Part shown: one piece after another, positions 43,417 to 61,653 of the stretch
Layout: each line of letters begins with the position of its first letter
How positions within the stretch are numbered: position 1 is the first letter of the stretch
DNA from: an uncultured Chloroflexia bacterium
GTDB lineage: Bacteria; Chloroflexota; Dehalococcoidia; GIF9; AB-539-J10
Direction: 5' to 3'
DNA: 64,000 bases
NCBI GenBank assembly: GCA_963769975.1
Contig: CAVYNS010000003.1
Span: forward strand, 384,434-448,433
Made by a program: the position numbers and the translations under genes
Notes under the pieces: generated by a model
Seen by the model: only the letters and a program-made list of their open reading frames with translations
Told to the model about the DNA's origin: nothing
The model's database searches: none

Positions 43417-44369
43417 AGCTGCCCCCCTGTCGCTAGTAAATCGTCCAACCCCTTAAACTCTGCGTTCCAATCAGCCTCAAAGGTGCGTATTCTACGCTTG
43501 ATTAGGCAAGCAATTAAGGCGTTCTTATGGAGATTGACAACAGGATAAGATAGCTTGTCCATGTCAAAGGCAACAATCGCCCTTGCTGGTGCGAGTTCAC
43601 GGACTATCGGTATAATGCCCGGCCAATTGCCAACACCAGGCACGGCCAAAACAACACGCTCCAGCCTCAGAGCGGCAATATCGGCTTTAATCGGCCCTTC
43701 GGTAATCCACATTTCGCTCTTAGTGGACACTGGCCCTGCTACATGTACCGGCGCTCCTGGAGAACAGCCGGCGAAGTAGCCGCGAGAGCTTAACCACCTA
43801 TAGCGGCTACCGTTCTCTGTGTTGTCACACCGGATTTGCAATCCTATAATACGGCGCTTAGTGTCCCTTACGGGTATCAGAATCCCGGCTGGGCCTGAGA
43901 GCCTAACTTCCTCAAACCCAAGCCAGAAGCCCGGGACGCCGATTAGCTTGAATCCCTTTGCTTTGAGACTTTGCACTACGCCGCGCCTCCCGTTTACCGG
44001 GAATGATTTGTACTCTAGTCTGAGAATCTCATCGTCCGTTAGTCCCCGGCGTTGTAAGTTTGTGCGGTGGGTATCTGATAGTGACAGTTCTACGAGCAGG
44101 GCGTGGTAAGCTCTGTCAAGCACGTCTGGCGCCGCTTTTGGTATTTGCTTTGCATCAGGTCTAGGCTTAGGTAGCGGTAATGACTTCATGGTGTCCAGTT
44201 TGTGTATCCAACCTGCACCTTTCTTGCCTGCGGGTTTATCACTCTCAATGCGAGCGCAGATAGCGGCTTCCCCATCCTGTGATATAAGACACCAATCAGG
44301 CTTACCGCATACCGGGCACAGGTTATGCTTGGTAACACGAATCCACTTGTTAGCCGTTGCCGTGGTCAT
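43404..44369 (-). CDS. zinc-ribbon + TOPRIM primase (P4-type/DnaG-like)
   Basis: 321 aa; CPVCGKPDWC ... AAIC zinc ribbon, then a TOPRIM with conserved E (ITEGP) and DxD (AFDMD). Confidence 0.6.
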   Translation of the reverse strand: MTTATANKWIRVTKHNLCPVCGKPDWCLISQDGEAAICARIESDKPAGKKGAGWIHKLDTMKSLPLPKPRPDAKQIPKAAPDVLDRAYHALLVELSLSDTHRTNLQRRGLTDDEILRLEYKSFPVNGRRGVVQSLKAKGFKLIGVPGFWLGFEEVRLSGPAGILIPVRDTKRRIIGLQIRCDNTENGSRYRWLSSRGYFAGCSPGAPVHVAGPVSTKSEMWITEGPIKADIAALRLERVVLAVPGVGNWPGIIPIVRELAPARAIVAFDMDKLSYPVVNLHKNALIACLIKRRIRTFEADWNAEFKGLDDLLATGGQLCQR

Positions 44370-45593: not shown

Positions 45594-48317
45594 GTGGTTG
45601 ACTACAGCATAGAGGTTTCAGTTACCGAGGGTACGACAAATACTGAGCGTGGAAACTTGTTAGTAGAGTTGATGCGCGATGTATTTGATGCGACTAACCA
45701 TACCAGTGGTCCGTCTATTAGGGTCACTGGTATGGAGATAGATACTACTGCTACTCATAATGTCACCGGCGAGAAGATATATGCCGAGTGCAAGGCTTAT
45801 AGAGAACCTATACCAGCAGATACTATTTCAAAACTATTGGGCAACGTTTTTCTTAAGAACGTAGACCAGGGATGGCTGGTAACTACATCTAAGCTTTCTA
45901 AGGACGCCGAGGGATCAAAGGAAGAGTGGGAGAAGAAACCTCCAGAAGAACGTCGTCGATTACAGGTCTACAATCCTCCTAGACTGCTAACTCTGTTAAT
46001 AGCTTCAAACCGTATCTTTGATCCAGCCAAGATAACAGCTACCTCAGGAACGGAGCAGGGTAACTGGTATTTTCTTCTGACTAATCTTGGTCGTTACTGG
46101 GCAAAGTTGGTAGTAGAGGCAGGCATACCGAGTAGAGTCATCGTCTATAATGCACAGACAGGCGTGTTAGTAAACGATGCGGAGCTTTTGAAAAAACTCA
46201 AACTGACTGACACTAGCCTCCGCGATTTCAATTGGCCAATTCCTTCTCCCAATGGTTCAGGGGTGGGAGAGTTGCTTGCCTACTTATCGGAAACGGTTGT
46301 TGATGTCGCGACTGGTGATACTTGGGCGGATTATCGTCCTGCCAGACCTCAAGACTTTGTGGGTCGGCATGATCTTCAAGATACTATGCGAGATTTATTT
46401 CTAGGTATTAGGAATAGAAGTACTAACACTCGTTTATTCTCAATAACTGGACCGTCGGGATGGGGTAAAAGTTCTTTAATTGCGAAACTACGGGACCGCT
46501 GTAGTAATAAGGCAAATCGTAAGAAATTTTACATGACTGCATTTGATATGAGAGCCGCCAAATCGTCAAACTATGTTTCCGCTGCTCTCCTAAGGTGTTT
46601 CTCGTCAGCGATCCAACGAAATTTTATTCTTCGGCCTGTTATGCCACTGCAAGTGGGAGCTCCCACAACGCCTCTTGAAAGTGAATCCTTACAAGATTGT
46701 TTACAACAGCTTAAAGATAAGAACAAAGTACTCATCTTAGTTTTTGATCAGTTTGAGGAGGTACTTACTAAACCCGAATTGAGGCAGCTATTTGATAGAC
46801 TTCGGTTACTCGCTTTGTCAGTGGATGCACAAAAAGAGAATCTTGTCCTTGGCTTTGCTTGGAAAAGCGATGCTTTTCTTCCACAAGATCACCCCGCGTA
46901 CTATCTTTGGCATCAACTCAAGGACAGACGTCTTGATCTGGCTGTGCCACGTTTTGGTTCAAAGGACGTCTCGCAAGCCCTAACACACTTCCAAACCGAA
47001 TTGGGACAACGCTTGAATCCTGTTTTACGCTCACAATTGGTACAGCATTGTCAAGGTTTTCCTTGGCTACTCAAAAAGCTGTGTATTCATGTTCTTAACC
47101 TCGTAAGACGTGATCTAAGTCAGCTGCAGGTGCTAGAGCGAGGACTAGATGTACGAGGACTGTTCGAAGCAGATTTAAGTGGGCTTTCCAGTAAGGAAAC
47201 ACTGTGCCTTAAAGAAATCGCGCGGTTGGCACCTGTTGAATGGGTACAAATTGTCGAACAATTCGGGAATGATACATACACTTCACTACTAGGTAAACTG
47301 TTGATAGTTCGTAGTGGCGACAGGCTGAACCCATATTGGGATATTTTCGGAGACTATCTGCGCACCAATGAAATCCCACATGTGCCTGTGTCTTTTCTGC
47401 CAGGAACTGAAATCCGAACTTTAGCAAGAGCAGCTGTTATTACTGTTATGAACAGGCCAGCAGGAGTCACATTAGAAAAACTGAGCACATCGCTGTCTAT
47501 AAATAGTAGGTCAGCAGGTAATGTTGTTCGAGATTTACAGATGTTTAGTCTTGCAGAGAGAAAAGGTGATCATATCGTTTCAACGATAGCTATCAAGGAG
47601 ACAAGAGATGCAGTCGCTGAGATCGCAAGACTAATCGCTCGCGCCTTAAATAACCACACCTTTACAATTATACTTCGTAGGAATGTAGCAAAGGGTTCAG
47701 AGATTACTGAACAGGATTTGCTTGGGTTCTTTAATGAGGCATTCCGGTATGCGTCACTCCGTGATGTCACAAAGAGAATGTACACACTCCGACTCGCCAA
47801 ATACTTGACGGCAACCCGCTTTCTCGAGCGTGTTCCTAGCGTATGGATACTCATTGATGAATTGACGGGACAGTTGATATTAATGCCAAGAGTTAGAGGT
47901 GCAGGTGAGTTTCTAGGAGATGCTCCTCCTGGAAGAGTTTTGGAGGTGCTGCAGAAGCTGTCGGAGTCTCCTGTGCCGAGAGCAGTCTTGAATAAGTCTC
48001 GTCTGAGGAACGCGACAGCATGTGCAATAATGCTGGAGCTCGCAAGCACACGTGATGGCATCGTTTACAGGCTAGAAGATACTAAGGACATGGAGGCTTC
48101 ACTAGTTGGAGCAGTAACCAACACTAGGTCTTTTAAGATAGTTTCAGAGCTTATCTGCAAATCTCCCAACATATCAGCAACGGAAATCGGTAAAACTCTG
48201 TCTGCCCACCTTGATTTGCCTTGGAGTGAGGCATCAAACCTTCGCCGTGGTAACGCGCTTCGTAGGTGGGTTCGGTGGTCGCAAAGTCAGACTTCCACAC
48301 GATCGGAGCCTGTATAG
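45594..48317 (+). CDS. STAND-type P-loop NTPase with an N-terminal Mrr-like PD-(D/E)xK nuclease domain (Avs-like antiviral STAND candidate)
   Basis: 907 aa; N-terminus GMEID ... EKIYAECKAY (D ... ExK); Walker A GPSGWGKSS; Walker B LILVFDQFEE; ~450-aa C-terminal helical region. Confidence 0.75.
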   Translation: MVDYSIEVSVTEGTTNTERGNLLVELMRDVFDATNHTSGPSIRVTGMEIDTTATHNVTGEKIYAECKAYREPIPADTISKLLGNVFLKNVDQGWLVTTSKLSKDAEGSKEEWEKKPPEERRRLQVYNPPRLLTLLIASNRIFDPAKITATSGTEQGNWYFLLTNLGRYWAKLVVEAGIPSRVIVYNAQTGVLVNDAELLKKLKLTDTSLRDFNWPIPSPNGSGVGELLAYLSETVVDVATGDTWADYRPARPQDFVGRHDLQDTMRDLFLGIRNRSTNTRLFSITGPSGWGKSSLIAKLRDRCSNKANRKKFYMTAFDMRAAKSSNYVSAALLRCFSSAIQRNFILRPVMPLQVGAPTTPLESESLQDCLQQLKDKNKVLILVFDQFEEVLTKPELRQLFDRLRLLALSVDAQKENLVLGFAWKSDAFLPQDHPAYYLWHQLKDRRLDLAVPRFGSKDVSQALTHFQTELGQRLNPVLRSQLVQHCQGFPWLLKKLCIHVLNLVRRDLSQLQVLERGLDVRGLFEADLSGLSSKETLCLKEIARLAPVEWVQIVEQFGNDTYTSLLGKLLIVRSGDRLNPYWDIFGDYLRTNEIPHVPVSFLPGTEIRTLARAAVITVMNRPAGVTLEKLSTSLSINSRSAGNVVRDLQMFSLAERKGDHIVSTIAIKETRDAVAEIARLIARALNNHTFTIILRRNVAKGSEITEQDLLGFFNEAFRYASLRDVTKRMYTLRLAKYLTATRFLERVPSVWILIDELTGQLILMPRVRGAGEFLGDAPPGRVLEVLQKLSESPVPRAVLNKSRLRNATACAIMLELASTRDGIVYRLEDTKDMEASLVGAVTNTRSFKIVSELICKSPNISATEIGKTLSAHLDLPWSEASNLRRGNALRRWVRWSQSQTSTRSEPV

Positions 48318-48567: not shown

Positions 48568-49329
48568 ATGGCACGAGAAACTTGGCATCAACCAACTATG
48601 GTAGAGAAGCGTGAAACCAGTATTAATGGGCAAACCATCACATATACAGTCAAGCGAAGCCTTAGGGCAAGGCATGTTCGGCTCGAGGTGAGACGGCAAA
48701 CGGGGCTTACGGTAGTTGTTCCTCACTCTTACAAGATTGGGCAACTCCCTAGACTTCTAGAATCGAAGGAACGATGGATCTCAAGTAGCTTGGCAAGATG
48801 TAGCAATTTCCAATCGCCTTATGCCGAGAAGGAACTCGGGAGTGGCGATACTGTCCCCTATCTTGGCCGAGACTTGAAGCTAGTCAAGCGGGAAAACCAC
48901 AGTGAAGTTGATAGTGTAACGCTAGAGGGAGATACACTGGCAGTGAGTCACGGATTATTTAAAAATGGTATCTTGGAGTTGGCTTTGGAACAGTGGTATC
49001 GGGCGGAGGCTGCTAGGCTGATAAACGAGAGAGCAGATAGGCTGAGTTCTCAGATGGGCATTCACTGCAAACGAATTGTCATACGAGGTCAAAAGACTCG
49101 CTGGGGCAGCTGCTCTCATAAGAAAAATCTTAGCTTTAACTGGAAACTAATAATGGCGCCAGAGCCTGTGATCGACTATGTTGTTATCCATGAACTTGCC
49201 CATCTGAAAGAGATGAATCATTCAAAGAGGTTCTGGGAATTGGTAGCTCAACACTGTCACAGATGGCGGGAGTATAAGAAGTGGCTCAGGCAACACGAGG
49301 CAAACCTTACTGCGAAACTCTGTCCCTAG
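48568..49329 (+). CDS. DUF45/YgjP-family metal-dependent hydrolase (WLM/SprT-like HExxH)
   Basis: 253 aa; HELAHLKEMNH zinc-binding motif. Confidence 0.75.
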   Translation: MARETWHQPTMVEKRETSINGQTITYTVKRSLRARHVRLEVRRQTGLTVVVPHSYKIGQLPRLLESKERWISSSLARCSNFQSPYAEKELGSGDTVPYLGRDLKLVKRENHSEVDSVTLEGDTLAVSHGLFKNGILELALEQWYRAEAARLINERADRLSSQMGIHCKRIVIRGQKTRWGSCSHKKNLSFNWKLIMAPEPVIDYVVIHELAHLKEMNHSKRFWELVAQHCHRWREYKKWLRQHEANLTAKLCP

Positions 49330-49431: not shown

Positions 49432-50517
49432 CTACAGGTCAAACTCTGTCCAGACCGCTCCGTGATCCGACGCTGATGCGGTGATGCCGTTGTCCTGCAC
49501 TTCCGGCCAAGCAATTACTTCCCCGTTGGAGTACTTTGCAACATCAAAAATACCTCTGCGTTCGACTCCGGCCTGTCTGCACGCATTCTGGAGCGGTTCC
49601 GAGACAAGAATGAAATCAAGCTGCTGATTCACATCGTAATGGTATGTCCATCTGTCCTCAGGTTTTGCGATTTTCAGCGCCAGTACATCTTTTAGCTCTC
49701 TCACATTCATCAGCGGCGATAGTGACTTGCTGTCAGGCGCCGCGTTGAAATCTCCGAGTACCACGACTTTGTCTCTCGTCAGGTCATGATTCCGCTCTCT
49801 AATAATGTCACCCACCCGTTGTGCTTGACGCAGTCTTTTGGCATCGTTTTGCTCCTGTGAGCCGTATCCTTGACTCTTGAAATGATTGACGAAAAGGTAC
49901 AGGAAATCGTTGTCTGGGAGCTTGATTGTGACTTCAAGACAGTCGCGAGAGAAAATGCGTGAACGTCCAACTTTCTCAAACATGTGGGTCCTGATATCGC
50001 ACATCTCGAAGCGAGAAAGGAGCGAGACATCAATTCCACGGGGATCAAATGCGTCAATCAGCATACTGTACGGATACCTCTTTCTAATGAATTGAGAATT
50101 GAATATATCAAGGGTGGGTTTGCTCTCTACCTCAATCACGCTGATGATGTCCGCGCTCACAGAGTTGATGACTTTCGCAGTGTTCTTTCTTGTGATTTCG
50201 GTGAAGTCGTCGGCTTTGAATGCGATGAAGCCACCCCAGTCATCCCTGCCTTTCGCTTTTACGCCGACGACGTTGAACTTCCGGTCACGCTTGAATAGTT
50301 TCTGGCGCACTTCATTTATGTCGATGAAATCCTTTAGTTCTTCATAGAGACCAAGAATCTTCTTGCCATCGTAGGCCTTCTTCTCCAACTCCACTTGTAG
50401 TTGGTCAACTTTGGCGAGTATTTCATCCCCATCTCTCCGCTCTTCAAAATTAAAGACTTTTGCGCGGCGAAATAAGTTCTCCGCATTGAACGTCGCAATC
50501 TTTAGAGTGTCACGCAT
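49432..50517 (-). CDS. endonuclease/exonuclease/phosphatase (EEP) family protein
   Basis: 361 aa; N-terminus KIATFNAENLF; motifs VLGDFNA and SDHGAVWTEF. Confidence 0.75.
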   Translation of the reverse strand: MRDTLKIATFNAENLFRRAKVFNFEERRDGDEILAKVDQLQVELEKKAYDGKKILGLYEELKDFIDINEVRQKLFKRDRKFNVVGVKAKGRDDWGGFIAFKADDFTEITRKNTAKVINSVSADIISVIEVESKPTLDIFNSQFIRKRYPYSMLIDAFDPRGIDVSLLSRFEMCDIRTHMFEKVGRSRIFSRDCLEVTIKLPDNDFLYLFVNHFKSQGYGSQEQNDAKRLRQAQRVGDIIRERNHDLTRDKVVVLGDFNAAPDSKSLSPLMNVRELKDVLALKIAKPEDRWTYHYDVNQQLDFILVSEPLQNACRQAGVERRGIFDVAKYSNGEVIAWPEVQDNGITASASDHGAVWTEFDL

Positions 50518-50636: not shown

Positions 50637-51569
50637 CTAGATATTGTTCGCGTTTCCTTGGAATATTTGCTTTCTACAAATCAAGGTGACGTCTCGGACT
50701 AGGCCTAAAGTTCTGGGAATTCGCTCTATTATAGTTGGTATTGCCTGAACGATTCCGAGTCCTTGAGTATAATCTTGTGGCTCCAGAAAACCTCCTGGAT
50801 ATCGTGTATAACTCTCGTGAGGGAAGGTTAACACTCCAAAGATATAACACTGACCTGCTGCCTGACCAAATTTCACCGAGGAATAGGTAACAATTGATTC
50901 TTTGTACTCAGGTAGGTATTCTGCAAAAACGGTTTTGACTTCATTTTCCTTCTGCTCTAATAATGGATGTGTTGTGAAGAGTGCGTCAGCAACTCTGATC
51001 AGTCCCTCTATGCCGAGTACACGGGGGGACGAGTTCATGGGCAGCTTGGCTAGCCGCTGTTGATCACTGTTAACTAGTTTCTTCACTTGGGTGATGGCTG
51101 TCTTGTAGTCTCGGTTATCAAGTGAGTTCAGTATACTCATCATCTCGTTGCCGGGCTTTTCTTCAATGATCTTCAATAGAGGTTGTGGAGTTCGATGAGT
51201 TGTGAGCAGTTCCTTAATGGTTACATCACCAATCGATAAGCAGAAAGCTTTCATGGCCTTTTCAATTGCTTGCTGGATGTGATAAACGCTCAGAGCAAGT
51301 TCCCCATGTTGAAAGAGTAAATTTGCCGCCCTATGATCTGCTTCTCCAGCGCCTAGGTATTTATCAGCAATGTCCAAAGAAGACGAATCTCGCCTTATCA
51401 CGACATGCTTGAGGGCACGCTTTACGAGTACTTCTGTTCGGAGCGAGTCTATCTGGTTAGCTTTCGGCATCAACTTCTTGATACCCGGCTTAACCCTAAG
51501 CCATAGCGTCTCGATTAGTTCATTTCCATTTTCGTTTGCCATTTGGTCGCCCGGAATGAATAACATCAT
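50637..51569 (-). CDS. hypothetical protein (310 aa)
   Basis: ORF only; follows the EEP gene on the same strand. Confidence 0.45.
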   Translation of the reverse strand: MMLFIPGDQMANENGNELIETLWLRVKPGIKKLMPKANQIDSLRTEVLVKRALKHVVIRRDSSSLDIADKYLGAGEADHRAANLLFQHGELALSVYHIQQAIEKAMKAFCLSIGDVTIKELLTTHRTPQPLLKIIEEKPGNEMMSILNSLDNRDYKTAITQVKKLVNSDQQRLAKLPMNSSPRVLGIEGLIRVADALFTTHPLLEQKENEVKTVFAEYLPEYKESIVTYSSVKFGQAAGQCYIFGVLTFPHESYTRYPGGFLEPQDYTQGLGIVQAIPTIIERIPRTLGLVRDVTLICRKQIFQGNANNI

Positions 51570-51776: not shown

Positions 51777-54470
51777 TTAGAGATCGCGAATTATCTCGAT
51801 TGCAGGCTTTTGAGCAGCGCGAATCATCACAACACCGGCGCCTGATACTGCCGCTATCACTATACCTAGCACCAGAGCTAGGTATGTCCAGGGCACAAAA
51901 AGGTGCTCCGGCGGCGGATCGAACACACCGCTCATTATTCTGACCATGACTAGGGATAGTGACCATCCGGCAAGTGCACCGAGGACTATGCCACCGACGG
52001 TCAGGAAGAACGCCTCGCTCCATACAAAGGAGGACAACTGTTTGGCGTTTGCCCCAAGGGAGGCTGATATAGCGAATATCCTGCGGCGCTCGGCCAAGCC
52101 AAGAAGGAAGACGAGGCCCGAAGCCCCCGCAGCCAGAATCAATGCAAACAGCAGTTCGAGTTTCGTGAGGCCGGATAGATCAACCGCCGTCAAGCTAGAG
52201 AGTGTGACATGCAATTGGGTTTCGACATCCTGAACAGTCGCTCCCGATGCTGGGCCGAGTAGGTCGCGGATGCGACCGGCTACAACCTGTGGGGAGCCGC
52301 TGGTCTTCACAAGCAGGGTTTCGTAGGCTGACGAACCGGTTTCTTGAGCGATGTACGATGCATTAGCGATGAGAAAGGAATCTCGGGGCGCTGTAGGGAA
52401 TTCGCGTACTATCCCCACGTAATGGAAGTCCACCAGATGGTAAGCGTGGTCGCTGGCAAACTGAAGCCGGATGCGGATTAAGTCACCAGGCTGAAGCTGG
52501 AAATCATTGACGGTCTCTGCCGATACTAGGATGCCATCGGGTCTTGAGGCCAGTTTGCTGAGCATCTCATTCGCGCTTCCGCCTGAGAAGAAAGCGTTGG
52601 ACATCGGGGTTGCCTTGCGGATTAGCTCGGGGTCTATGCCGTAGAGGTCCTGGAGGTCTCTACCCACATATGCGAATCGGTGCTGCATAGGCTCTGCGTC
52701 GATTACACCCGTAATATTCTCTACAGATTGGGCCAACCCCTCCGGAAATCCGCTTGAAGCAGTCGTTGAAACCGTTACATCAGCACCATTGGTGAGTTGA
52801 GCGTCTACCCGGGCCTGATGCGAGTAGGTGGTGTTAAATACCGCAACCGTCACGGCAAATGAGAAGGCCAGCGCGAGGATGACAAGCCCCCTTGATAGCA
52901 GACTTCGTTGCCTTGACATCGATGCCGTTACCACCCCTGACAATCGTTGGGCGATCAGGGTTAGAGCTCGACGTAAGAATGGTTTTCCACGTGCCAGCGT
53001 AAGGTTGGAAAGTCGCCAGATCAGCAAGGCGAAACCAACCCACAGCATGAGGGGGGCCAGTAAAGTTAGGTAATTAATAGAAATGGTCGGGATGCCTTCC
53101 GGCGCGAGGATGACCTGGTAGGCATTTCGCATTGATTGCCAGAATATGATCCCACCGCCGGCAAGCAAAATGATGTCAAGATAAATGAGCGACCACAGTG
53201 GCGGGCGGGGATTCGTTATAGTTAACTGTGCCGCTCTAACGGTGAGACTTCTAGCATCGCGCCACGCTGGTAGAAGGATTGTCATAAAAGAAATGGCGAA
53301 CCCCAAAACCACGGCGGCGATAACCCAAGACACCGCCTGTATTGGCGTTGCTCCGAACCGCGAGGTACCGAACGCAATATGACCTGCGAGCACTGCTCCT
53401 CCGAGGCCCAATACTATTCCTATGGTTCCAACCAGCGCAGCTTCTGCTGCAGCAAGCCTTAGAACCTGCCGGGGCGATGCTCCGCGGATTATGAGAAGCG
53501 CCTGTTCCCGCCGCCGCCTGTCGCCGCCACTCATAGCGATGACGTACACCAACAATGCGGCAAGGACGACGCAGGGAAGGCCGAGAAACAGGAATAATAT
53601 CTGTGCGTAGGTGGCATCAGAACGTGCCCCATCCAGTTGAGCACCGAGATTATTACCCACAATACCGGCGCCTCCAAGTTCTGCTTCAAGACTATGTGCC
53701 CGGTGGATAACTTCGCTAAAGGCTGCCGTGGGATCCGCAGGAAGATCGCTCGCAAGCTTCACGTGAACCTGCATGTGAACGGAATTGGGATTACTCTTTG
53801 CTAACTCGTCAAACATCTGATGCCAGGTTGAGAGGGGCATGAGGACAACATTGTCAGGTGGTGCGGTGGGGTTGGCCCCGGGCACGCCACCGATGCTTTG
53901 GAACAGAGAATCGGCTGCCGGCAGATCGACGATTCCCTGCACTAGAAGCTCCGTTTGTGTCCCACCAGGTAGACCAACCGTCATGGTATCTCCCACCGTT
54001 GCTTGAAGATTTGCCGCGGTCTGTTGCGCCAACAATATGCCTTGGGTAGATCCGACCAGGAACCGGACCTCTCCGAGGAATGACGACGCATACCCGTCAG
54101 GGATCCCAAGGGCCTTGCCCTGTCCTGTTGTCTGAACGGTCCCACCTGCGGAAGTCCGTAGATAAACAACATCAGCGTAGCCCACAGGTTGGGCCTCTAC
54201 GACCCCCTTGGTCTGCTTGATAGTTTGAATGGACTGTATCAAGTCTGCATCCTGCGAGAGCTGAACCTGCCAGTCGACCGGGACCCCAGCGGTGGCTTCT
54301 TTGGTCATGTGGGCCCTGCTGGATACAAAGAACATGCCTAGCGAGGCAATCAGGCTCACTGCGAGACCGACACAAAGAACCATGCCGATCAAACGCGCTC
54401 TTCTTCTTTGTATTAACCCGCTGATCCAAGTCAGACTGAGCAAATGATCACCCCATCTGTAAATGCCCAT
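51777..54470 (-). CDS. ABC transporter permease, FtsX/MacB-like, duplicated (10 TM)
   Basis: 897 aa; two FtsX-type four-helix modules separated by large extracytoplasmic domains. Confidence 0.8.
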   Translation of the reverse strand: MGIYRWGDHLLSLTWISGLIQRRRARLIGMVLCVGLAVSLIASLGMFFVSSRAHMTKEATAGVPVDWQVQLSQDADLIQSIQTIKQTKGVVEAQPVGYADVVYLRTSAGGTVQTTGQGKALGIPDGYASSFLGEVRFLVGSTQGILLAQQTAANLQATVGDTMTVGLPGGTQTELLVQGIVDLPAADSLFQSIGGVPGANPTAPPDNVVLMPLSTWHQMFDELAKSNPNSVHMQVHVKLASDLPADPTAAFSEVIHRAHSLEAELGGAGIVGNNLGAQLDGARSDATYAQILFLFLGLPCVVLAALLVYVIAMSGGDRRRREQALLIIRGASPRQVLRLAAAEAALVGTIGIVLGLGGAVLAGHIAFGTSRFGATPIQAVSWVIAAVVLGFAISFMTILLPAWRDARSLTVRAAQLTITNPRPPLWSLIYLDIILLAGGGIIFWQSMRNAYQVILAPEGIPTISINYLTLLAPLMLWVGFALLIWRLSNLTLARGKPFLRRALTLIAQRLSGVVTASMSRQRSLLSRGLVILALAFSFAVTVAVFNTTYSHQARVDAQLTNGADVTVSTTASSGFPEGLAQSVENITGVIDAEPMQHRFAYVGRDLQDLYGIDPELIRKATPMSNAFFSGGSANEMLSKLASRPDGILVSAETVNDFQLQPGDLIRIRLQFASDHAYHLVDFHYVGIVREFPTAPRDSFLIANASYIAQETGSSAYETLLVKTSGSPQVVAGRIRDLLGPASGATVQDVETQLHVTLSSLTAVDLSGLTKLELLFALILAAGASGLVFLLGLAERRRIFAISASLGANAKQLSSFVWSEAFFLTVGGIVLGALAGWSLSLVMVRIMSGVFDPPPEHLFVPWTYLALVLGIVIAAVSGAGVVMIRAAQKPAIEIIRDL

Positions 54471-55122
54471 GCTCTATCGACCATTGGGTAGGGAGGAAGT
54501 CGGCCACGACTCTGTCATGCGTTGCAACCACCAGGGTAGCACCGATCTCTTCAACGAAATCTAGAAGAGAGTCCATCAGATACCGGGAGCCCTCACTGTC
54601 TTGTTGCCCAGTCGGCTCATCGGCCAGCAACAGCGCGGGACGTGTAACTAATGCCCGGGCGATACCTGCTCTCTGTGATTGGCCCCCCGAAATCTCCTCA
54701 GGCAAGCTGTAGCCAACGTCTGCAAGTGACATGCGTTCCAGCATTTCCCAAGCAGCCTTCAGCGCTTCGGGTTCGGGATCACCGGCTATAAGAAGAGGCA
54801 AAGCCACGTTTTCGGCGACGGTCAGGGGCGGAATGAGGCTGTGCCCCTGGAATGCCATTGCCACTAGCCTAGGCCTCAGCCGCTCTTTTGCTCCTAGAGC
54901 AGGCCACTGGATCATGCCGTTTGTGGGCGAATCAAGCCCCGCGACCAAGTGGAGCAACGTCGTCTTCCCGCTTCCCGACGAGCCGACCAACGCTATGCGC
55001 GAATGGGCAGAGATCTGAAAAGTAGCGCCCTCCAGCGCGATAACGGCGCGCTCACCTGTACCGTAGATTTTCCCGATGTTATCCGCTCTAACCAGTGGGT
55101 CATGCATCGGTGATCCTGCCAT
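54448..55122 (-). CDS. ABC transporter ATP-binding protein
   Basis: 224 aa; Walker A GSSGSGKTT, ABC signature LSGGQSQR, Walker B LLLADEPT. Confidence 0.85.
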   Translation of the reverse strand: MAGSPMHDPLVRADNIGKIYGTGERAVIALEGATFQISAHSRIALVGSSGSGKTTLLHLVAGLDSPTNGMIQWPALGAKERLRPRLVAMAFQGHSLIPPLTVAENVALPLLIAGDPEPEALKAAWEMLERMSLADVGYSLPEEISGGQSQRAGIARALVTRPALLLADEPTGQQDSEGSRYLMDSLLDFVEEIGATLVVATHDRVVADFLPTQWSIEHGHLQMG

Positions 55123-55789
55123 CTGAGAGTCGAATCAGGCGGTTGGCCTCTCTGGCCACGCGCTCGCTGTGCGTGACCACAACAACAGTACCCCCGGCCT
55201 CGGCCCTGTCCCTCATGATTTTCAAGATTGCTGCCTCGTTCTTGGCATCAACCTCGCCGGTCGGCTCATCGGCAAGGAGGATAGGTGGGTTGTTTGCAAG
55301 AGCTACGGCTAGACCGGCACGTGCTGCCTCTCCTCCGGAGAGTGTTGATGGCCAGGCGTTAGCCCGGGCCTCTAAACCTACAGCGGCCAAAATGGTACCG
55401 GCATCTGGATGCTCTCCCTTGACCAAATACTGAGCAACTTTAATATTCTGTGCGACCGTCAGGTGTTCCAATAGATTTCCTGACTGCAAGAGCACCCCCA
55501 TCCACTTGGCTCGCAGCTCAGTTCGCGCTGTTTCCGGTCGTCTGGTGATTCGGTCCCCAGCAATATCAACATGACCTCCGTTAGGTTCGTCGAGGCCAGC
55601 GATGCAGGCAAGCAGAGTAGATTTTCCACTTCCGGAGGGGCCTACAACCGCCACCATTTCGCCAGCGTGGACCGATAGGGATACACCACGCAGTGCAAAA
55701 GTCTCATCGTCCCCGTTATGGTAAAACCGGTATAGTTCTGAGACACGGATGAGGAGCTCGCCTGAGCAAAGGCTACCCGTTAGAGCCAT
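55100..55789 (-). CDS. ABC transporter ATP-binding protein (second ATPase)
   Basis: 229 aa; Walker A GPSGSGKST, signature LSGGEAAR, Walker B LLADEPT. Confidence 0.85.
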   Translation of the reverse strand: MALTGSLCSGELLIRVSELYRFYHNGDDETFALRGVSLSVHAGEMVAVVGPSGSGKSTLLACIAGLDEPNGGHVDIAGDRITRRPETARTELRAKWMGVLLQSGNLLEHLTVAQNIKVAQYLVKGEHPDAGTILAAVGLEARANAWPSTLSGGEAARAGLAVALANNPPILLADEPTGEVDAKNEAAILKIMRDRAEAGGTVVVVTHSERVAREANRLIRLSDGRITDA

Positions 55790-56352
55790 TTGAAGCTCTC
55801 CGAAATAATTTTCCAGGGATCCACATTATCTGCGCCCACCGGAGACGCAAGCATCAGATTCACCTGGAGACCGTTTCGATAAAACTCGTAAAGGAGCACA
55901 TCCATCCTGTACTTCTTTCCAGTGACCTGGTTTGGTGCGCTGTCCTTCTGGTATTTGATAAGTATCGCCGTACCTCCGGGCAAGGTGACCTGCTTGGTTT
56001 CGACAAGCTGGAATGCAGGCTCGGTGCTTGCTAGCTCCGGCACATCGACCGAGTTTGCCCGCTCGACAGTCGGCTCTGGAGCATCAGGAACCCACCTGAT
56101 GGATACTATGTTCAGCTTGTCGGTGAATTCAGTACTTGACTCAGAGGTCGACTGCGCCCATCCCTCCGGTACCTTGACCTCAAAACTCCCGCTGGTCGGC
56201 TTGTACATCACGAAGACCTGGTTGTCTGGAATATCACCAGAAGGATTAACCCCCTCGTTGCTTGCGGATTTTCCGTGTGCTAAAGCCAACAATACCGACC
56301 CGGTTGCTATTAATACTATTAATATCAGATAGACCAACCTTTTTTTCTTCAT
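55780..56352 (-). CDS. secreted/lipoprotein component of the ABC system
   Basis: 190 aa; signal peptide MKKKRLVYLILIVLIATGSVLLALAHG. Confidence 0.5.
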   Translation of the reverse strand: MKKKRLVYLILIVLIATGSVLLALAHGKSASNEGVNPSGDIPDNQVFVMYKPTSGSFEVKVPEGWAQSTSESSTEFTDKLNIVSIRWVPDAPEPTVERANSVDVPELASTEPAFQLVETKQVTLPGGTAILIKYQKDSAPNQVTGKKYRMDVLLYEFYRNGLQVNLMLASPVGADNVDPWKIISESFKWL

Positions 56353-56910: not shown

Positions 56911-57980
56911 GTGAGAATTCTCGATCAGGAGGGAAATACCGTGACGGATAGGAAAACAGACAACTTAGAGGATACACTTAGAATGGTACAGGAGGTCTTG
57001 ACAGCTAACAGAAAAGACCTCCGCTCACTGCTCTACAAAGACATTATCCTGAATTCGCTGAAGTGCAAACGAGATGAGCTTGATATTCTTGATCTCAAGG
57101 TCATCAATCGGGCAGTGGCCGAGTTCCGACATGCCGCGTGTGTCTTCAAACCGTACAGGATGGTTCGTAAAGTGTCCATGTTTGGTTCCGCTCGAGTAAC
57201 CAGGCACAGCCCCGACTATGAGCTAGCGCGCAGACTCGGCCGTTTGCTAGTTGAAAAAGGGTTCATGGTAATCACTGGAGCTGCAGAAGGTATCATGAGG
57301 GCGGAATTGAAGGTGCCGGCGCTGAAAACAGTTTTGGAGCTAACATCCTGCTCCCAATTGAAAGGGGGCCTACCAGTATAATTCGAGATGATCCAAAGGT
57401 GGTTCGGTTTAAATATTTTTTCACGCGCAAAATATTCTTTGTAATGGAAGCTGATGCTATTGCGCTATTCCCTGGGGGCTTTGGCACGCATGATGAAGGA
57501 TTTGAAGTGTTAACGTTGCTACAGACAGGTAAAGCACCGCCAATGCCTGTAGTGCTTATGGAATTGCCAGGGGAACAGTACTGGGAAACTTGGGATCAAT
57601 TTATAAGGCAGCAGTTGCTAACCCGGCGCTTTATCTCCCCGGAGGACCTTTCCCTTTACAAGATCATCCATTCTCCCGAGGAGGCGGTAGAATGGATTAG
57701 GTCATACTACGCAACCTACCATTCAACACGCCAAGTACGAGACCAGCTTGTCATCAGGCTAGAGAAAGAGCTTCTGGGCAGTCATATTAGGAAACTAAAC
57801 GAGTCTTTTCAGGACCTCGTTGAGTCTGGGGAAATTGCCAAAACACCCGCTCTAAAAGAGGAAGAAGACGAACCGAACCTCTCATTAAAACCCAGAATTG
57901 CTTTTGCGTACAACAAAAAAAGTGCTGGGCGCCTTAATCAGATGATATTAATGATAAACCAACTGGGCCAAACAATTTGA
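56911..57980 (+). pseudogene. LOG-family (TIGR00730-type) Rossmann nucleotide-binding protein, split by a 1-nt frameshift
   Basis: ORF1 (56911-57381) carries FGSARV ... VITGAAEGIM. The other frame, open from 57255 (track ORF 57399-57980), continues GGIEGAGAENSFGANILLP ... ADAIALFPGGFGT. The frames switch near 57295-57300. Confidence 0.6.
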
Positions 57981-58002
57981 GTGTTTGTGCAATCAGCAAC
58001 AA

Positions 58003-60210
58003 TCATTTGCTGTTCGAATTGTTTTCCCCTTCACTGAAAAACATACTCATGAAAGGTTCCCGACTAGATGTGTCGCGCGCTAGACCTACCCAGGATAAAA
58101 TACCTGCTTCATCCATTTTATGCACACAGTATTCTGGCAAGAACATCATGCGCTCAAGATTTGGTTTTTGTGTGCCATCTCCACAGAAATAGGTGAACCC
58201 CCATTGATTAGATGTGTCGATTATCGTGAAGTCTTTGAGCGCTCCGCCGCTATCTTTGGATCGACGCAAGGTGGACACAATACTTTCCTCGATGGCCTTT
58301 CGAAACGGATAACTAATGTCAAGTAGAGAGCAGCAAACATCAGTGTAACCCGGATTGTGAATCCGCTCCAAAGCCAGCAAGATGCTTTTCAGATGTCTCG
58401 GTATGAACTGACCCGGTCTTGGGACTCTTAACCTCAATCCTCTCTTATAATAGAAATATTGATCAAAATCGCTGGTTGCGTTAACAATATGAATCTTTTC
58501 TATGGGATCGGTGACCTTGGGCATCGGGATTTCCAGATTTAAGATAAAGTAGCACCCAAAATAGTCAAGTTCGTCAGATGCGTATACCTTCTCCGATACA
58601 CTCATCCTCTTTTTGAAGTAATGCACAAATTGAGAAGGAAAATCGATAAAATCTGAGATCAAACTCAAACTTCCTATGTAAATAGGCCAAGGATATTCAT
58701 CTGCTGAGAACAGTCCCAGAGATTTTAACTTTCTTGGATCTGCTGCCAGCACGTCAAATGAATCAAAGGTTACACTTATGAGAAAATAATTCTTGATGGA
58801 CCTCTTATCTATCGTAATTGTCGAACCGTCAGACAAAGTAAATTCTGCTTGGTCACTCATTTTTATATAGTCCTTGGCGCGTCTTGCCTGTCTAAAGGTC
58901 CTTTCGATAGATTGCTGAATATCATGTACTATAGGCTCTTTCACGCCTTTTTTTGATGCCTGGGTTACTGGGTGGGTTGCACATTCTATCAGGAACAGAT
59001 TGTTGTCATGTTGAACCAGAACGTCTAACTCGACTCTGATCCTTCTGCTATTTTCTATCACATTGTATTTAAGTCTATTGTAGGCAGCAGCTGTTGGGAA
59101 AATCTTCTTGAAAAGCCTCAATGATTCCTGTTCTAAGTAGCGTGACCTAAGACGGTTATATTTTTCTCGATACAATGAATCTCCCATCAACTCCTTGTCC
59201 AGGGAATAAAATAGACAGCGGGCCAAATAGGCTGAGGAATGGAAGAGATATGCCTGATCAAGTTTGACTACAGGGGTGTCCTGAAGAGGGTTGTCATCTA
59301 ACGGACTGGTGAACTTACCATCAACCTGTCCCGGTTCAATGGAAACCCATTTTAGAAAAGAAACCAAAGAATCTTGATCGTTAGAATTAACATTTTGAAG
59401 TAGTTCCTGTTCGGAAATGAAAAACAAACCTCTAGCCAGTTCTGGGAGTGTATTCAGAACATGCCCTGCTTCAACAGATTGCTTCTGGCTGCGTTTCTTT
59501 TTATAAATACCTATAGGCCAGGCGGTCGCATTAACTTCTGTTGAGGCCAGTTCTGTAAAAACCGTAATCAGTCTTTCTTTTTCCTTCTCGAATCTATTAA
59601 TTTTGAGGCGAGAAATCGTCTTTACAAAGGCAATCGCTTGAGCTATATTAAATCCAAACTTCTGTTCAAGGTACCGTGCCTGTGAATCAAATAGCTGTTG
59701 TGCCATCTCAAGAAAGTACGTGTCATAAGTTTCACCTCTGACGAGCATATAGTTCAGACGTGCATTTGTTAAGATATTCCACTTATCCTCGTCTGCATGC
59801 TCTGAGCTGTAGAATTGTGCTGCGCAGTATTCATTGCACAACCAAAATATTTTCTCGGAGAGGTCACGAATTGCGGTAGCGTCTTTGATGCTGGGATACT
59901 GCAGATTCCGAACATTATTTTTCAGTGCCAAAGCTGTAATGTATTCTATGAATGCCGGAGAATTTGGGTCTACGTACCCCCTCCGTACTTGTGCAGAACG
60001 TGCCATGTTTAATACTACTATTAGGGGCAATAAGGTTGACTTATCAAATCTGGCAATAGCGGACTCCAGTTGCGACGCTTCTGATTTGATTTGGTCATGT
60101 AGCTTAGCGGCATCTGGCAGTTCAAGCTCATCAACCCGCTTCTTATCCTTTGAACTCTTACCACCTAGCCACACTAGCTGGATACGTTCATTGAGATTTC
60201 GTCTTTTCAA
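58003..60210 (-). CDS. hypothetical protein, 735 aa, second gene of the TIR operon
   Basis: Long ORF 83 nt downstream of the TIR gene on the same strand; no P-loop and no recognisable catalytic motif. Confidence 0.55.
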   Translation of the reverse strand: MKRRNLNERIQLVWLGGKSSKDKKRVDELELPDAAKLHDQIKSEASQLESAIARFDKSTLLPLIVVLNMARSAQVRRGYVDPNSPAFIEYITALALKNNVRNLQYPSIKDATAIRDLSEKIFWLCNEYCAAQFYSSEHADEDKWNILTNARLNYMLVRGETYDTYFLEMAQQLFDSQARYLEQKFGFNIAQAIAFVKTISRLKINRFEKEKERLITVFTELASTEVNATAWPIGIYKKKRSQKQSVEAGHVLNTLPELARGLFFISEQELLQNVNSNDQDSLVSFLKWVSIEPGQVDGKFTSPLDDNPLQDTPVVKLDQAYLFHSSAYLARCLFYSLDKELMGDSLYREKYNRLRSRYLEQESLRLFKKIFPTAAAYNRLKYNVIENSRRIRVELDVLVQHDNNLFLIECATHPVTQASKKGVKEPIVHDIQQSIERTFRQARRAKDYIKMSDQAEFTLSDGSTITIDKRSIKNYFLISVTFDSFDVLAADPRKLKSLGLFSADEYPWPIYIGSLSLISDFIDFPSQFVHYFKKRMSVSEKVYASDELDYFGCYFILNLEIPMPKVTDPIEKIHIVNATSDFDQYFYYKRGLRLRVPRPGQFIPRHLKSILLALERIHNPGYTDVCCSLLDISYPFRKAIEESIVSTLRRSKDSGGALKDFTIIDTSNQWGFTYFCGDGTQKPNLERMMFLPEYCVHKMDEAGILSWVGLARDTSSREPFMSMFFSEGENNSNSK

Positions 60211-60292
60211 TTACGCGAACTCACAGAATGGGTTTTTCCTTAATCCTTCCCGCGCAGGACAGCGTGCATTCACATTCATTTGAGAGAATGCT

Positions 60293-61324
60293 TCACCTAG
60301 CCTCAATGGCTGGGAGCAAATCCTCTAGACCTCGTTGGTAGTTTGTCCTGAAATCTGCGTACCGCTTATCCGCAATGAGAGGTGGAATGTCACAATCAGC
60401 AATCAGAACTGGCAGGACTACTACATTCCTTGTTTGTAGTTCACGCATTAAGCCAGCACTCAGCTCTTTCTCAACCCAAGACGATTTTACTGAATTAGGC
60501 GATAGAATGAGTATGAGGTAGTCGTTCCTATTAATACTTTCGTTGATCTTCTTCGCAATAGAGTCGCCAACCTTTATTTCCCAACGATCCCACCATACTT
60601 GCTTCCCTGAGTTATTCAGGTCGTTCACGAGGCGTTCTACAAACTCAGCATCCTTACTTGAATAGCTGATGAAAGCGCTGGGTATTGTCTTGTCCTTTTT
60701 TAACACTGGCTTACGATTCTTCCTATAGGCAGACAGTTCCGCTTCTACCACAGGAATGATTTCAGCTGGCATGGTCCAATCTGGGTATTTATTACTGCCG
60801 GTTTTAAAGATCAGTTTTAGAGTGCGGAATCTTGGTAGCAAATAGGATGGGACAAATTCATAACCGAGCGCTGATTCAATGGCATCAAGAAGCTCGAAAT
60901 ATTCACTTCTTCCGCCTTTATCGATAATTCCTCGCAAGACACCGTAGGCTTTGTCTCCCCAGCGACTGAGCGCCTTTTGCACGTTCGCACGTACAGCATC
61001 CCAGGAACTTTCGACCTTCAGTCGACCACTTTCATCGCAAGTGTAATAATTTCCCTGGAATCCACCGAGGTCAAGGCCATACTTTGGCGGTTTCTTCATT
61101 ATGAGTTTGACCAGCGTTTCGTCAGAAATCACTTCTGCAATAGCTAAGGCCGCCTTTAACCTAGAATCATCCCCATATCCAATGTCCCAGTAATTCGCGA
61201 ATTTCTCAAAATAAGGAATACGCAGGATCTTACCTACATTATAGAGGTCCTCCAGCCAATAAAGGCGCATCAATAATAAGGCTCTTTCTTTTGTCCTTGC
61301 ATCCGTCAGTTCGTTAGATGGCAT
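60293..61324 (-). CDS. TIR-domain protein (unknown ~200-aa N-terminal domain + C-terminal TIR)
   Basis: 343 aa; the C-terminus FISYSSKDAEFVERLVNDL ... WWDRWEIKVGDSI ... ILSPNSVKSSWVEKEL matches TIR core motifs, including the catalytic-region Glu. Confidence 0.75.
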   Translation of the reverse strand: MPSNELTDARTKERALLLMRLYWLEDLYNVGKILRIPYFEKFANYWDIGYGDDSRLKAALAIAEVISDETLVKLIMKKPPKYGLDLGGFQGNYYTCDESGRLKVESSWDAVRANVQKALSRWGDKAYGVLRGIIDKGGRSEYFELLDAIESALGYEFVPSYLLPRFRTLKLIFKTGSNKYPDWTMPAEIIPVVEAELSAYRKNRKPVLKKDKTIPSAFISYSSKDAEFVERLVNDLNNSGKQVWWDRWEIKVGDSIAKKINESINRNDYLILILSPNSVKSSWVEKELSAGLMRELQTRNVVVLPVLIADCDIPPLIADKRYADFRTNYQRGLEDLLPAIEAR

Positions 61325-61628
61325 GTTTTAGCCTCGCGTTCTCGTGAGAGTTATGACCCAGATTCCTATTTTACCATTTTTAACATGTGTACCAAACGGT
61401 TCATGATCCTAGCTGTAAAACCTTGCTTATCTCTACGCATGGTATGCCAAGGCTTAACAATTGTCAGTATTGTTTAATGCAAAGAACACCGGTCTTCGGA
61501 GACTGAGACTAGGGTGGCGTTTTCATCGTGCCGAAATGAGACCCGACGGCCCGACACCACGAGGGGTTACACCTGACTACAACTGCCAACACTCGCGATA
61601 AGCGAGTAGTTAAGCGTTAAAATCCGAG

Positions 61629-61653
61629 AGGGGAAGCGTCAAGCCTCCCCTCA
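61629..61653 (-). terminator. putative rho-independent terminator after the hsdM-S gene
   Basis: Minus-strand hairpin GAGGGGAGGCTTGACGCTTCCCCTC followed by tcGGATTTT. Confidence 0.35.

What the first reader, a model, noticed from the sequence alone, without database searches (positions are those of the whole stretch)
58003..61324. Two-gene operon: TIR-domain protein plus unknown 735-aa protein, a candidate Thoeris-like or new TIR-based defence system
The 343-aa product has a clear C-terminal TIR domain fused to an uncharacterised ~200-aa N-terminal domain. Its start is at 61324; the 735-aa gene (start 60210) follows 83 nt downstream on the same strand, and the 735-aa protein has no P-loop, SIR2, SLOG or obvious nuclease motif that I can see. 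TIR proteins in prokaryotic defence are NADase or signal-generating components (Thoeris ThsB, TIR-STING, SPARTA, Avs-TIR). Here neither partner looks like a known ThsA (SIR2/SLOG or TM/Macro), so the effector module may be new. The operon is embedded in an accessory region next to a type I R-M unit. It is convergent with a LOG-family gene, which is distantly related to the SLOG domains found in Thoeris sensors.
Basis: partly seen in the sequence, partly recalled or inferred. Interest (0 to 1): 0.8.

Follow-up and report, generated by a model that had tools for sequence, protein, structure and literature searches.

The report
Two stacked single-gene defence modules
The two genes are real and probably co-transcribed, but related genomes show them to be separate mobile anti-phage modules (a TIR NAD-cleaving protein with a new sensor domain, and a large stand-alone nuclease), not a Thoeris-like two-part system.

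Summary
Both ORFs exist as described: 343 aa at 60293-61324 and 735 aa at 58003-60210, both on the minus strand, 82 nt apart.

The 343-aa protein is a previously undescribed ~205-aa helical and winged-helix domain fused to an AbTir-like TIR domain. The catalytic Glu (E287), the cyclase Trp (W283) and the BB-loop Gly and Ser are all present.

The 735-aa protein is not an orphan. It belongs to a family of at least 3,400 sequence clusters of ~750-aa proteins with a central NERD-like PD-(D/E)xK nuclease. Its only significant structural match is the single-protein defence nuclease Upx.

About 45 non-redundant loci of nuclease homologues (22-79% identity to the window protein) have no TIR neighbour. 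TIR homologues at 91%, 80% and 37-39% identity have no such nuclease nearby. Only copies at least 96% identical keep both genes, as a discrete 3.5-kb block (57972-61474) that sits in unrelated flanks. Each gene also occurs alone elsewhere, with the same outer block ends.

Best reading: two independent single-gene defence modules stacked in a Chloroflexota defence island. I rate this a new variant of known kinds, of moderate interest.

The parts
60293..61324 (-). Gene for the 343-aa wHTH-TIR protein (module 1)
   Evidence: ORF. Pfam TIR_2 E 1.3e-30. AF2 model has mean pLDDT 85. Found without the nuclease gene in L008 (91% identity), L009 (80%), and L073 and L074 (37-39%).
60710..61324 (-). N-terminal domain, aa 1-205: six helices, a conserved GGFxGxYY hairpin and a winged helix with a KTGSxxYPxW wing. 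Presumed sensor or DNA-binding module.
60296..60679 (-). TIR domain, aa 216-343, predicted NADase/ADPR cyclase
61325..61474 (-). 150-bp upstream region that travels with the TIR gene. It has promoter-like hexamers and a 19-bp palindrome at 61456-61474.
   Evidence: Similarity to L020 (96.8%) and L008 (87.7%) ends exactly at 61474. Promoter-like sites at 61467-61439 and 61395-61368. The palindrome AACAAT-N7-ATTGTT is unique in the window (expected 0.02). L008 keeps it with a compensatory change.
60211..60292 (-). 82-nt spacer joining the two modules. Present only in the window lineage.
   Evidence: Conserved in L020 but replaced by unrelated sequence in L008, L021 and L010. No terminator-like site.
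58003..60210 (-). Gene for the 735-aa NERD-like PD-(D/E)xK nuclease (module 2)
58765..59175 (-). Central nuclease core, aa 346-482 (alpha-beta-beta-beta-alpha-beta): E360, D396, E409-C-A411, H413, K420, Q441
   Evidence: Secondary structure. PADLOC CARF_PDDEXK E 2.5e-5 and Pfam Card1_endonuc, weak. Relatives hit Pfam NERD at the same position. The alignment shows canonical E..D..ExK in the wider family and K411 replaced by Ala in all eight subclade members included in that alignment, with E409, C410 and A411 invariant across the 13-sequence subclade alignment.
57972..58002 (-). 31-nt tail after the stop codon that travels with the nuclease gene, forming the right edge of the block
   Evidence: Similarity to L020, L021 and L001 ends at 57971/57972 in three different contexts.

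Best explanation
Two autonomous single-gene anti-phage modules lie side by side and are probably co-transcribed in a defence island of a Chloroflexota (Dehalococcoidia-like) bacterium.

Module 1 is a sensor-TIR protein.
- The conserved N-terminal helical and winged-helix domain detects an infection cue. This step is inferred. Its very high conservation suggests a nucleic-acid or other invariant ligand rather than a fast-evolving phage protein.
- Sensing drives assembly of the AbTir-like TIR domain. The TIR domain then cleaves NAD+, probably with cyclisation to a cADPR isomer. This depletes NAD+ and aborts infection, as in SpbK-type single-protein TIR defences.

Module 2 is a ~750-aa stand-alone nuclease of a large uncharacterised family.
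- It has an N-terminal helical region, a NERD-like PD-(D/E)xK core and a C-terminal alpha/beta region.
- It resembles Upx in fold. By analogy it is kept inactive until a phage trigger allows it to degrade nucleic acid.

Shown: the domain identities, the catalytic residues, the separability of the two genes and their genomic settings. Inferred: the triggers, the enzymatic activities and the defence role.
For: Separability:
- L020 shares 96.8% nucleotide identity with the window only over 57972-61474, within unrelated flanks.
- L008 carries only the TIR part (60299-61474), with the same upstream end.
- L001, L021 and L010 carry only the nuclease part (57971-60212/4), with the same downstream end.

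No co-occurrence:
- Close nuclease homologues (47-79% identity) have no TIR neighbour. Several have no same-strand upstream gene at all.
- Of 53 loci of the wider family, only the window-lineage copy L020 has a TIR neighbour.
- No Pfam family occurs in more than 3 of 98 neighbouring proteins. The commonest are restriction-modification methylases, helicases and transposases or integrases.
- TIR homologues L008, L009, L073 and L074 lack the nuclease and sit on or near mobile elements.

TIR competence:
- G253, S255, W283 and E287 are conserved in 8 of the 9 aligned N-domain-TIR sequences, including the window's; the exception is P0125, which keeps W and E but not the Gly/Ser. Their roles in AbTir are documented.

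N-domain modularity:
- The same domain is fused either to TIR or to a different helical domain. In L014 that version sits between hsdS and hsdR.

Nuclease:
-.

Defence island:
- Mrr-STAND, YgjP, EEP nuclease, HEPN and HsdM/S genes are nearby.

Precedents:
- SpbK (PMC11984713), the E. coli TIR protein survey (PMC11350192) and Upx (PMC13099982, PMC13601566).
Against: - The two genes move together as one 3.5-kb block into at least two different contexts and are 82 nt apart with no terminator. A lineage-specific functional coupling therefore cannot be excluded.
- The TIR keeps the cyclase tryptophan, so it could make a signalling nucleotide rather than only deplete NAD+.
- In the window's nuclease subclade the canonical catalytic Lys is Ala (ExK becomes ECA). 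Nuclease activity is therefore unproven, although D396, E409 and E360 and the overall sequence are under strong conservation.
- No experimental data exist for either family.
Confidence: 0.68

Rival explanations
1. A lineage-specific two-gene TIR signalling system (Thoeris-like). The wHTH-TIR protein senses infection and makes a cADPR-type signal, which activates the 735-aa nuclease as effector.
For: The pair is kept with identical spacing in copies at least 96% identical that sit in two unrelated contexts. It appears also to be kept on further contigs of the same 90% clusters, an inference from matching contig lengths only. The block has its own promoter-like region and no internal terminator. 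The TIR domain has the cyclase Trp W283.
Against: There is no co-occurrence at any greater distance. The 735-aa protein is colinear over its full length with TIR-less relatives at 78-79% identity, so no extra receptor domain was gained. No SLOG, Macro, SAVED, CARF or STING-like domain was detected. The PADLOC CARF_PDDEXK hits cover only the nuclease part of those profiles. Several family members stand entirely alone.
Confidence: 0.15
2. One or both genes are not defence genes. For example, the 735-aa protein could be a mobile-element or DNA-repair nuclease, and the TIR protein an NAD-RNA decapping or regulatory wHTH protein. Their adjacency would then be incidental.
For: Neighbours of the nuclease family often include transposases, integrases and Tn7 TnsD. 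One member lies between housekeeping genes. The N-domain is unusually conserved (50-67% identity between bacterial and archaeal proteins), which is atypical for phage-protein sensors. TIR proteins can decap NAD-RNA (PMC10937652, listed, abstract only).
Against: The family shows patchy, horizontally transferred distribution. Members are embedded in or beside restriction-modification operons (window; L001, L002, L014, L041) and defence islands. Both families are nearly absent from 2.9 million viral contigs. The effector swap on the N-domain (TIR versus a second domain) is typical of defence proteins.
Confidence: 0.12
3. The 735-aa protein of this subclade is a catalytically dead nuclease-fold protein (K411A) that acts as a sensor or scaffold.
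For: All 13 subclade members have E-C-A instead of E-x-K, whereas the 40 wider-family sequences aligned keep a basic residue (K, in two cases R) at that position.
Against: The acidic residues E360, D396 and E409, as well as Q441, stay invariant. A conserved H413 and K420/K424 appear nearby. This is compatible with the lysine migration known in PD-(D/E)xK enzymes (general knowledge, not tested here).
Confidence: 0.05

Closest known systems
SpbK-type single-protein TIR defences (SpbK of ICEBs1; stand-alone TIR proteins tested in E. coli)
   Same: Both have an N-terminal non-TIR sensor region plus a C-terminal TIR NADase in one polypeptide. Both are carried on mobile or accessory DNA and have no dedicated effector gene (PMC11984713, PMC11350192).
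   Different: The N-terminal domain here is an unrelated, undescribed helical and winged-helix domain. The trigger is unknown. There is no experimental evidence.
AbTir/BtTir family of bacterial TIR NADases that produce 2'cADPR
   Same: These are among the closest TIR sequences and structures. The BB-loop G/S, the alpha-C Trp and the catalytic Glu are conserved.
   Different: AbTir has a coiled-coil N-terminal region, not this domain. The product of the window enzyme is unknown.
Thoeris (ThsB TIR plus ThsA effector)
   Same: A TIR protein with weak ThsB-type profile matches, with a downstream gene on the same strand.
   Different: There is no ThsA-like partner (SIR2-SLOG or Macro/TM), no conserved pairing and no signal-binding domain in the neighbour.
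Upx, a single-protein PD-(D/E)xK defence nuclease and terminase sensor
   Different: Upx is ~1,270 aa with two nuclease domains. No sequence similarity is detectable. The TM-score is low. The window subclade lacks the canonical Lys.
NERD-domain nucleases (Pfam PF08378)
   Same: Distant family members reach or approach the NERD threshold at the homologous central domain. They share the E..D..ExK..Q motif pattern.
   Different: The window protein itself does not match the NERD model. The ~350-aa N-terminal and ~250-aa C-terminal regions are specific to this family.

Membership tests
Thoeris | TIR-domain ThsB with a catalytic Glu | tested here: met
   TIR_2 E 1.3e-30. ThsB_TIR matches at 27.2 bits against a cutoff of 21.2. 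E287 is present.
Thoeris | Adjacent ThsA effector with a signal-binding domain (SLOG or Macro) and a SIR2 or TM effector | tested here: not met
   The 735-aa protein has no such domain in Pfam, NCBIfam or PADLOC. Its fold matches are PD-(D/E)xK nucleases.
Thoeris | Conserved co-occurrence of the TIR gene and the effector gene across lineages | tested here: not met
   The pair occurs only in copies at least 96% identical. It is absent from about 45 other non-redundant nuclease loci and 4 TIR loci.
Enzymatically active TIR NADase/cyclase (AbTir-like) | Catalytic Glu in the alpha-C helix, an aromatic residue 4 positions upstream, and BB-loop Gly/Ser | tested here: met
   E287, W283, G253 and S255 align to AbTir E208, W204, G174 and S176.
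Enzymatically active TIR NADase/cyclase (AbTir-like) | Measured NAD+ cleavage and identified product | not testable with these tools
   Needs biochemistry.
PD-(D/E)xK nuclease superfamily (NERD-like) | alpha-beta-beta-beta-alpha-beta core fold | tested here: met
PD-(D/E)xK nuclease superfamily (NERD-like) | Catalytic D...(D/E)xK triad | tested here: inconclusive
   D396 and E409 are invariant. K411 is Ala in the whole 13-member subclade, while the wider family has ExK.
PD-(D/E)xK nuclease superfamily (NERD-like) | Match to the Pfam NERD model above threshold | tested here: not met
   The window protein has no NERD hit. Relative P0152 passes (25.0 bits against a cutoff of 22.1), and P0222 and P0183 are below it.
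Upx | Sequence match to Upx models, and a dual-nuclease NTD-MD-CTD architecture of about 1,270 aa | tested here: not met
   No PADLOC Upx hit. No PDB sequence hit to 9wuf with family profiles. The protein is 735 aa with one recognisable core. The only similarity is structural.
Type I restriction-modification unit (context claim) | HsdM, HsdS and HsdR genes together | tested here: inconclusive
   An HsdM plus a single Methylase_S match (aa 463-597) fused in one 659-aa protein. The next ORF runs off the window and matches neither Pfam nor two HsdR proteins.

The most novel reading that the evidence does not exclude
The ~205-aa N-terminal domain defines a new, cross-domain (Archaea and Bacteria) family of single-protein immune sensors. 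One highly conserved winged-helix sensor is coupled to interchangeable effectors: TIR here, and a helical domain with an invariant RSKKxPxH (HEPN-like) motif in archaea. In the window lineage its cyclic-ADPR product might additionally have been co-opted to switch on the adjacent Lys-less NERD-like nuclease. That would make the 3.5-kb block a nascent two-component system.
Probability: 0.12. Interest if true: 0.75.

Novelty: new variant of a known kind. Interest (0 to 1): 0.42.

Why it matters
The result removes a false lead: this is not a new Thoeris-type pair. It points instead to two uncharacterised families that are absent from Pfam, and from the 2023 PADLOC models, as families.

- **The N-terminal domain.** It is a strongly conserved winged-helix sensor domain, shared between Bacteria and Archaea and fused to alternative effector domains.
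- **The nuclease family.** It comprises at least 3,400 clusters of ~750-aa stand-alone NERD-like nucleases with an Upx-like fold, found beside restriction-modification genes and mobile elements.

Both are inexpensive candidates for phage-challenge testing. The locus also shows how defence genes are shuffled as gene-sized modules with sharp ends.

Tried and rejected
- **Sequence searches with no significant result.** Profile searches of the nuclease family (A1, A4), of the N-domain (A8) and of the archaeal C-terminal domain (A6) against PDB sequences found nothing significant. The HEPN assignment for the archaeal C-domain therefore rests only on an Rx6H motif and is unproven.
- **PADLOC and Pfam.** PADLOC found no match to the N-domain region; three of the eight archaeal relatives had only insignificant chance-level hits (E 0.003 to 0.02). 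Pfam on 121 relatives found only TIR.
- **HsdR.** The ORF running off the window end did not match two HsdR proteins, so no HsdR is claimed.
- **Integron-like cassette idea.** The boundary palindrome and the tail motif are not repeated elsewhere in the window, and the ends do not fit attC consensus, so I dropped this.
- **Small upstream genes as a shared partner.** The upstream genes next to nuclease homologues (162, 190, 127 and ~330 aa) are unrelated to each other and to the TIR protein. Two apparent 'partners' (L042, L043) look like split N-terminal parts of the nuclease itself, judged by eye from shared motifs.
- **Phage origin.** One weak nuclease-family locus and no N-domain locus turned up in viral contigs.
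- **Tool limits.** The afdb50 fold library was unavailable.
Full report
**Observation**

They are separated by 82 nt. The N-terminus MKRRN.NERIQ is conserved in homologues of the 735-aa protein, which supports the TTG start. Pfam finds TIR_2 at aa 218-337 of the 343-aa protein (E 1.3e-30), and nothing matches its first ~205 aa. The 735-aa protein has no hit above threshold in Pfam, NCBIfam or PADLOC. It does show weak matches, restricted to aa ~350-433, to the nuclease halves of CARF-PD-(D/E)xK profiles (PADLOC E 2.5e-5; Pfam Card1_endonuc E 0.04). Upstream lies a 659-aa HsdM-HsdS fusion. Downstream and convergent lies a LOG-family gene.

**The TIR protein**

An AlphaFold model built from 121 relatives is confident (mean pLDDT 85; above 90 over the N-domain).

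The C-terminal domain is a TIR fold:
- It is closest in sequence to 7uxr and AbTir.
- In the HMMER alignment, 'KVGDS' and 'SSWVEKEL' align with AbTir 'KVGDS' and 'KDWTNYEL'. This places G253, S255, W283 and E287 opposite AbTir G174, S176, W204 and E208.
- For AbTir, E208A is inactive, G174A and S176A are nearly so, and W204 is needed for cyclisation to 2'cADPR (10.1101/2022.05.07.491051).
- These residues are kept in 8 of the 9 aligned N-domain-TIR sequences, the window's included; P0125 keeps W and E but has a divergent BB loop.

The enzyme is predicted to be an active NADase and probably a cyclase.

The N-domain (aa 1-205) has these features:
- It consists of six helices, a conserved GGFxGxYY hairpin, a long helix and a winged helix whose wing carries the near-invariant FKTGSxKYPDWxxPxE.
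- A profile of the domain finds nothing in PDB sequences.
- None of 121 relatives has a Pfam hit in this region.

The same domain, at 50-67% identity, forms the N-terminal half of a family of ~380-aa proteins. In species-representative genomes the 8 loci found are all archaeal: ANME-1, Methanoperedens, Thermoplasmata, Aenigmatarchaeota, Bathyarchaeia and Nitrososphaeria. Their C-terminal half is not TIR. It is a helical domain with invariant FNNR and RSKKxPxH motifs. The Rx6H spacing recalls HEPN, but I could not confirm this. In one Thermoplasmata locus this gene lies between hsdS and hsdR. One conserved N-domain is thus coupled to alternative C-terminal domains.

**The 735-aa protein**

A word-indexed search found only 13 relatives. 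A full HMM search with their alignment found 3,426 50%-identity clusters at E<=1e-3, and 788 at E<=1e-30. Most were matched over nearly the whole length and are 700-820 aa long.

- The AlphaFold model (pLDDT 71, pTM 0.71) shows a helical N-terminal region, an alpha-beta-beta-beta-alpha-beta core at aa 348-482 and an alpha/beta C-terminal region.
- Foldseek gives one significant hit, again Upx (E 1.2e-4, probability 1.00, 539 columns, TM 0.27/0.18).
- Some distant family members match Pfam NERD at the homologous position.
- The alignment shows the classical pattern YLE...ELDGLV...LFLIExK...ARRG...Q..RA..Y in the wider family. In the window's 13-member subclade the Lys is replaced (E409-C-A411), with an invariant H413 and 'SKKG' in place of 'ARRG'.
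- Family profiles find no PDB sequence, Upx included.

Upx is a characterised single-protein anti-phage nuclease that senses phage terminase (PMC13099982, PMC13601566). The resemblance is at the level of fold only.

**Are the two genes a system?**

This is the decisive test, and it fails.

Contexts of the close nuclease subfamily:

| Locus or protein | Identity to window | Upstream context |
|---|---|---|
| L001/L021 | 79% | Divergent type IIG methylase, no same-strand upstream gene |
| L010 | 78% | Unrelated 190-aa gene |
| L002/L003 | 66% | Unrelated 162-aa gene, beside a type ISP enzyme and an NTase-HEPN pair |
| P0007 | 60% | Alone |
| L004 | 53% | Alone, between a ferredoxin gene and yceD-rpmF |
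| L007 | 49% | After an integrase gene |
| L005/L006 | 47% | Unrelated 127-aa and 257-aa genes |

Other evidence:
- A pattern scan of metagenomes returned 53 loci of the wider family. A phmmer search with the TIR protein against all their ORFs hit only L020, the 96%-identical copy of the window block.
- Among 98 neighbouring proteins from about 45 non-redundant loci, no Pfam family occurs more than three times. The commonest are N6_Mtase/Eco57I, helicases, and rve, IS66, Tn7 or integrase genes.
- One member follows an hsdR gene directly (L041). One abuts Tn7 tnsD (L044). One precedes a metallophosphatase-STAND gene (L027).
- One subclade has its own ~330-aa upstream gene with an RNxxxxH motif.
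- The 91%-identical TIR gene (L008) is followed by a HEPN-family gene. The 80% homologue (L009) is followed by an opposite-strand gene.
- Homologues at 37-39% identity sit after an XRE/ImmA pair next to a resolvase (L073), or in an integrated element (L074/L075).

None of these has the nuclease nearby.

**Module boundaries**

- blastn shows that L020 matches the window at 96.8% only over 57972-61474. Both flanks are unrelated: in L020 they are a metallo-beta-lactamase protein and a helicase-PLD protein.
- L008 matches only 60299-61474, with the same upstream end.
- L001, L021 and L010 match only 57971-60212/4, with the same downstream end.
- The 82-nt spacer exists only in the window lineage.

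The locus is thus a junction of two gene-sized modules that also moved once as a joined 3.5-kb block. Matching contig lengths between the two 90%-identity clusters suggest that further contigs also carry both genes.

A strong hairpin with a short T-run follows the hsdM/S stop. The block brings its own promoter-like sites. The spacer has no terminator. Co-transcription of the two genes, separate from hsdM/S, is therefore plausible.

**Setting**

Near-identical copies of a neighbouring protein are annotated as Chloroflexota or Dehalococcoidia. The surrounding 20 kb holds:
- a Mrr-STAND NTPase;
- a YgjP peptidase;
- an EEP nuclease;
- a HEPN protein;
- DUF3987 and DUF3854 genes, which often sit on mobile elements (general knowledge, not tested here).

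Both families are essentially absent from viral contigs.

The LOG gene is split by a frameshift near 57290-57300. Apart from its last 9 nt, it lies outside the shared block. I see no link to SLOG-type signalling.

**Mechanism**

I favour two independent single-gene modules (confidence about 0.68).
- **Sensor-TIR.** The conserved winged-helix N-domain senses a cue and licenses assembly of the TIR domain, which cleaves NAD+. The precedent is SpbK, where an N-terminal region binds a phage portal protein and activates the TIR NADase (PMC11984713). Many stand-alone TIR proteins protect E. coli (PMC11350192).
- **Stand-alone nuclease.** It belongs to a large family with an Upx-like fold.

The triggers and activities are inferred, not shown.

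The main rival is a lineage-specific signalling pair (confidence about 0.15). It is kept alive by the joint transfer of the block and by the cyclase Trp. It is weakened by three points:
- there is no co-occurrence beyond near-identical copies;
- no receptor domain is detectable;
- TIR-less relatives are colinear with the window protein over their full length.

**Novelty**

Neither protein belongs to a named system. Both fit known kinds: sensor-TIR single-protein defences and stand-alone PD-(D/E)xK defence nucleases. The N-domain and the nuclease family's flanking regions are new. I rate this a new variant of a known kind, with interest 0.42.

Noticed in passing
window 56911-57980 (+): The LOG-family gene is split into two frames near 57290-57300: 'VITGAAEGIMRA' in one frame continues as 'EGAGAENSFGANILLPIE' in another. 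It is either a pseudogene or an assembly indel. Its last 9 nt fall inside the shared 3.5-kb block, so the block's insertion appears to supply its stop.
   Followed up: partly
window 61456-61474: A 19-bp palindrome, AACAAT-N7-ATTGTT, sits exactly at the upstream edge of the TIR module and overlaps a -35-like CTGACA. It is unique in the window (expected 0.02). L008 retains it with a compensatory change (AACAG...CTGTT). It may be an operator, possibly for the module's own winged helix.
   Followed up: partly
window 50637-51569 (-) and L008 4466-5323: The 310-aa HEPN protein of the window is homologous (29% identity, E 7e-30) to the gene that directly follows the 91%-identical TIR gene in L008. 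The same pool of defence genes seems to be reshuffled among related genomes.
   Followed up: partly
L011-L018 (for example L014 1968-3116): A family of ~380-aa proteins (archaeal in all 8 genome loci) shares the TIR protein's N-domain at 50-67% identity and has a helical C-domain with invariant FNNR and RSKKxPxH motifs (HEPN-like Rx6H, unconfirmed). In L014 it lies between hsdS and hsdR. In three loci a ~120-aa divergent neighbour is conserved.
   Followed up: partly
L025 4774-5796, L034 3808-4779, L036 2922-3920: One subclade of the nuclease family has a conserved ~330-aa upstream gene at a fixed 69-nt gap. It has no Pfam hit but carries 'EIREIRNASIGH', an RNxxxxH (HEPN-like) motif. This may be a clade-specific partner.
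   Followed up: partly
window 58003-60210, aa 409-424: The window's nuclease subclade replaces the canonical ExK lysine by Ala (E-C-A-T-H) and changes ARRG to SKKG. All 13 members share this, while the 40 wider-family sequences aligned keep ExK (two have ExR). It could be lysine migration or loss of catalysis.
   Followed up: partly
window 45594-48317 (+), 48568-49329 (+), 49432-50517 (-), 42166-44369 (-): Further defence or mobile genes lie nearby: an Mrr_cat-STAND NTPase (Avs-like architecture), a YgjP/M48 peptidase, an EEP-family nuclease, and DUF3987 and DUF3854 genes.
   Followed up: partly
window 51777-56352 (-): A block encoding an FtsX/MacB-type ABC transporter has GC ~55%, against ~42-48% on either side. 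It separates the HEPN gene from the LOG, nuclease and TIR genes, and may be a separate acquisition.
   Followed up: no
window 61615-61650: A 10-bp GC-rich hairpin (GAGGGGAGGC/GCTTCCCCTC) followed by TTTT lies just after the hsdM/S stop. It is terminator-like and was missed by the simple consensus scan.
   Followed up: partly
L042 601-1284, L043 2142-3047, L046: In some loci the nuclease family gene appears split into an N-terminal ORF (227-301 aa) and a C-terminal ORF (449-521 aa). This could be a frameshift or a genuine split gene.
   Followed up: no
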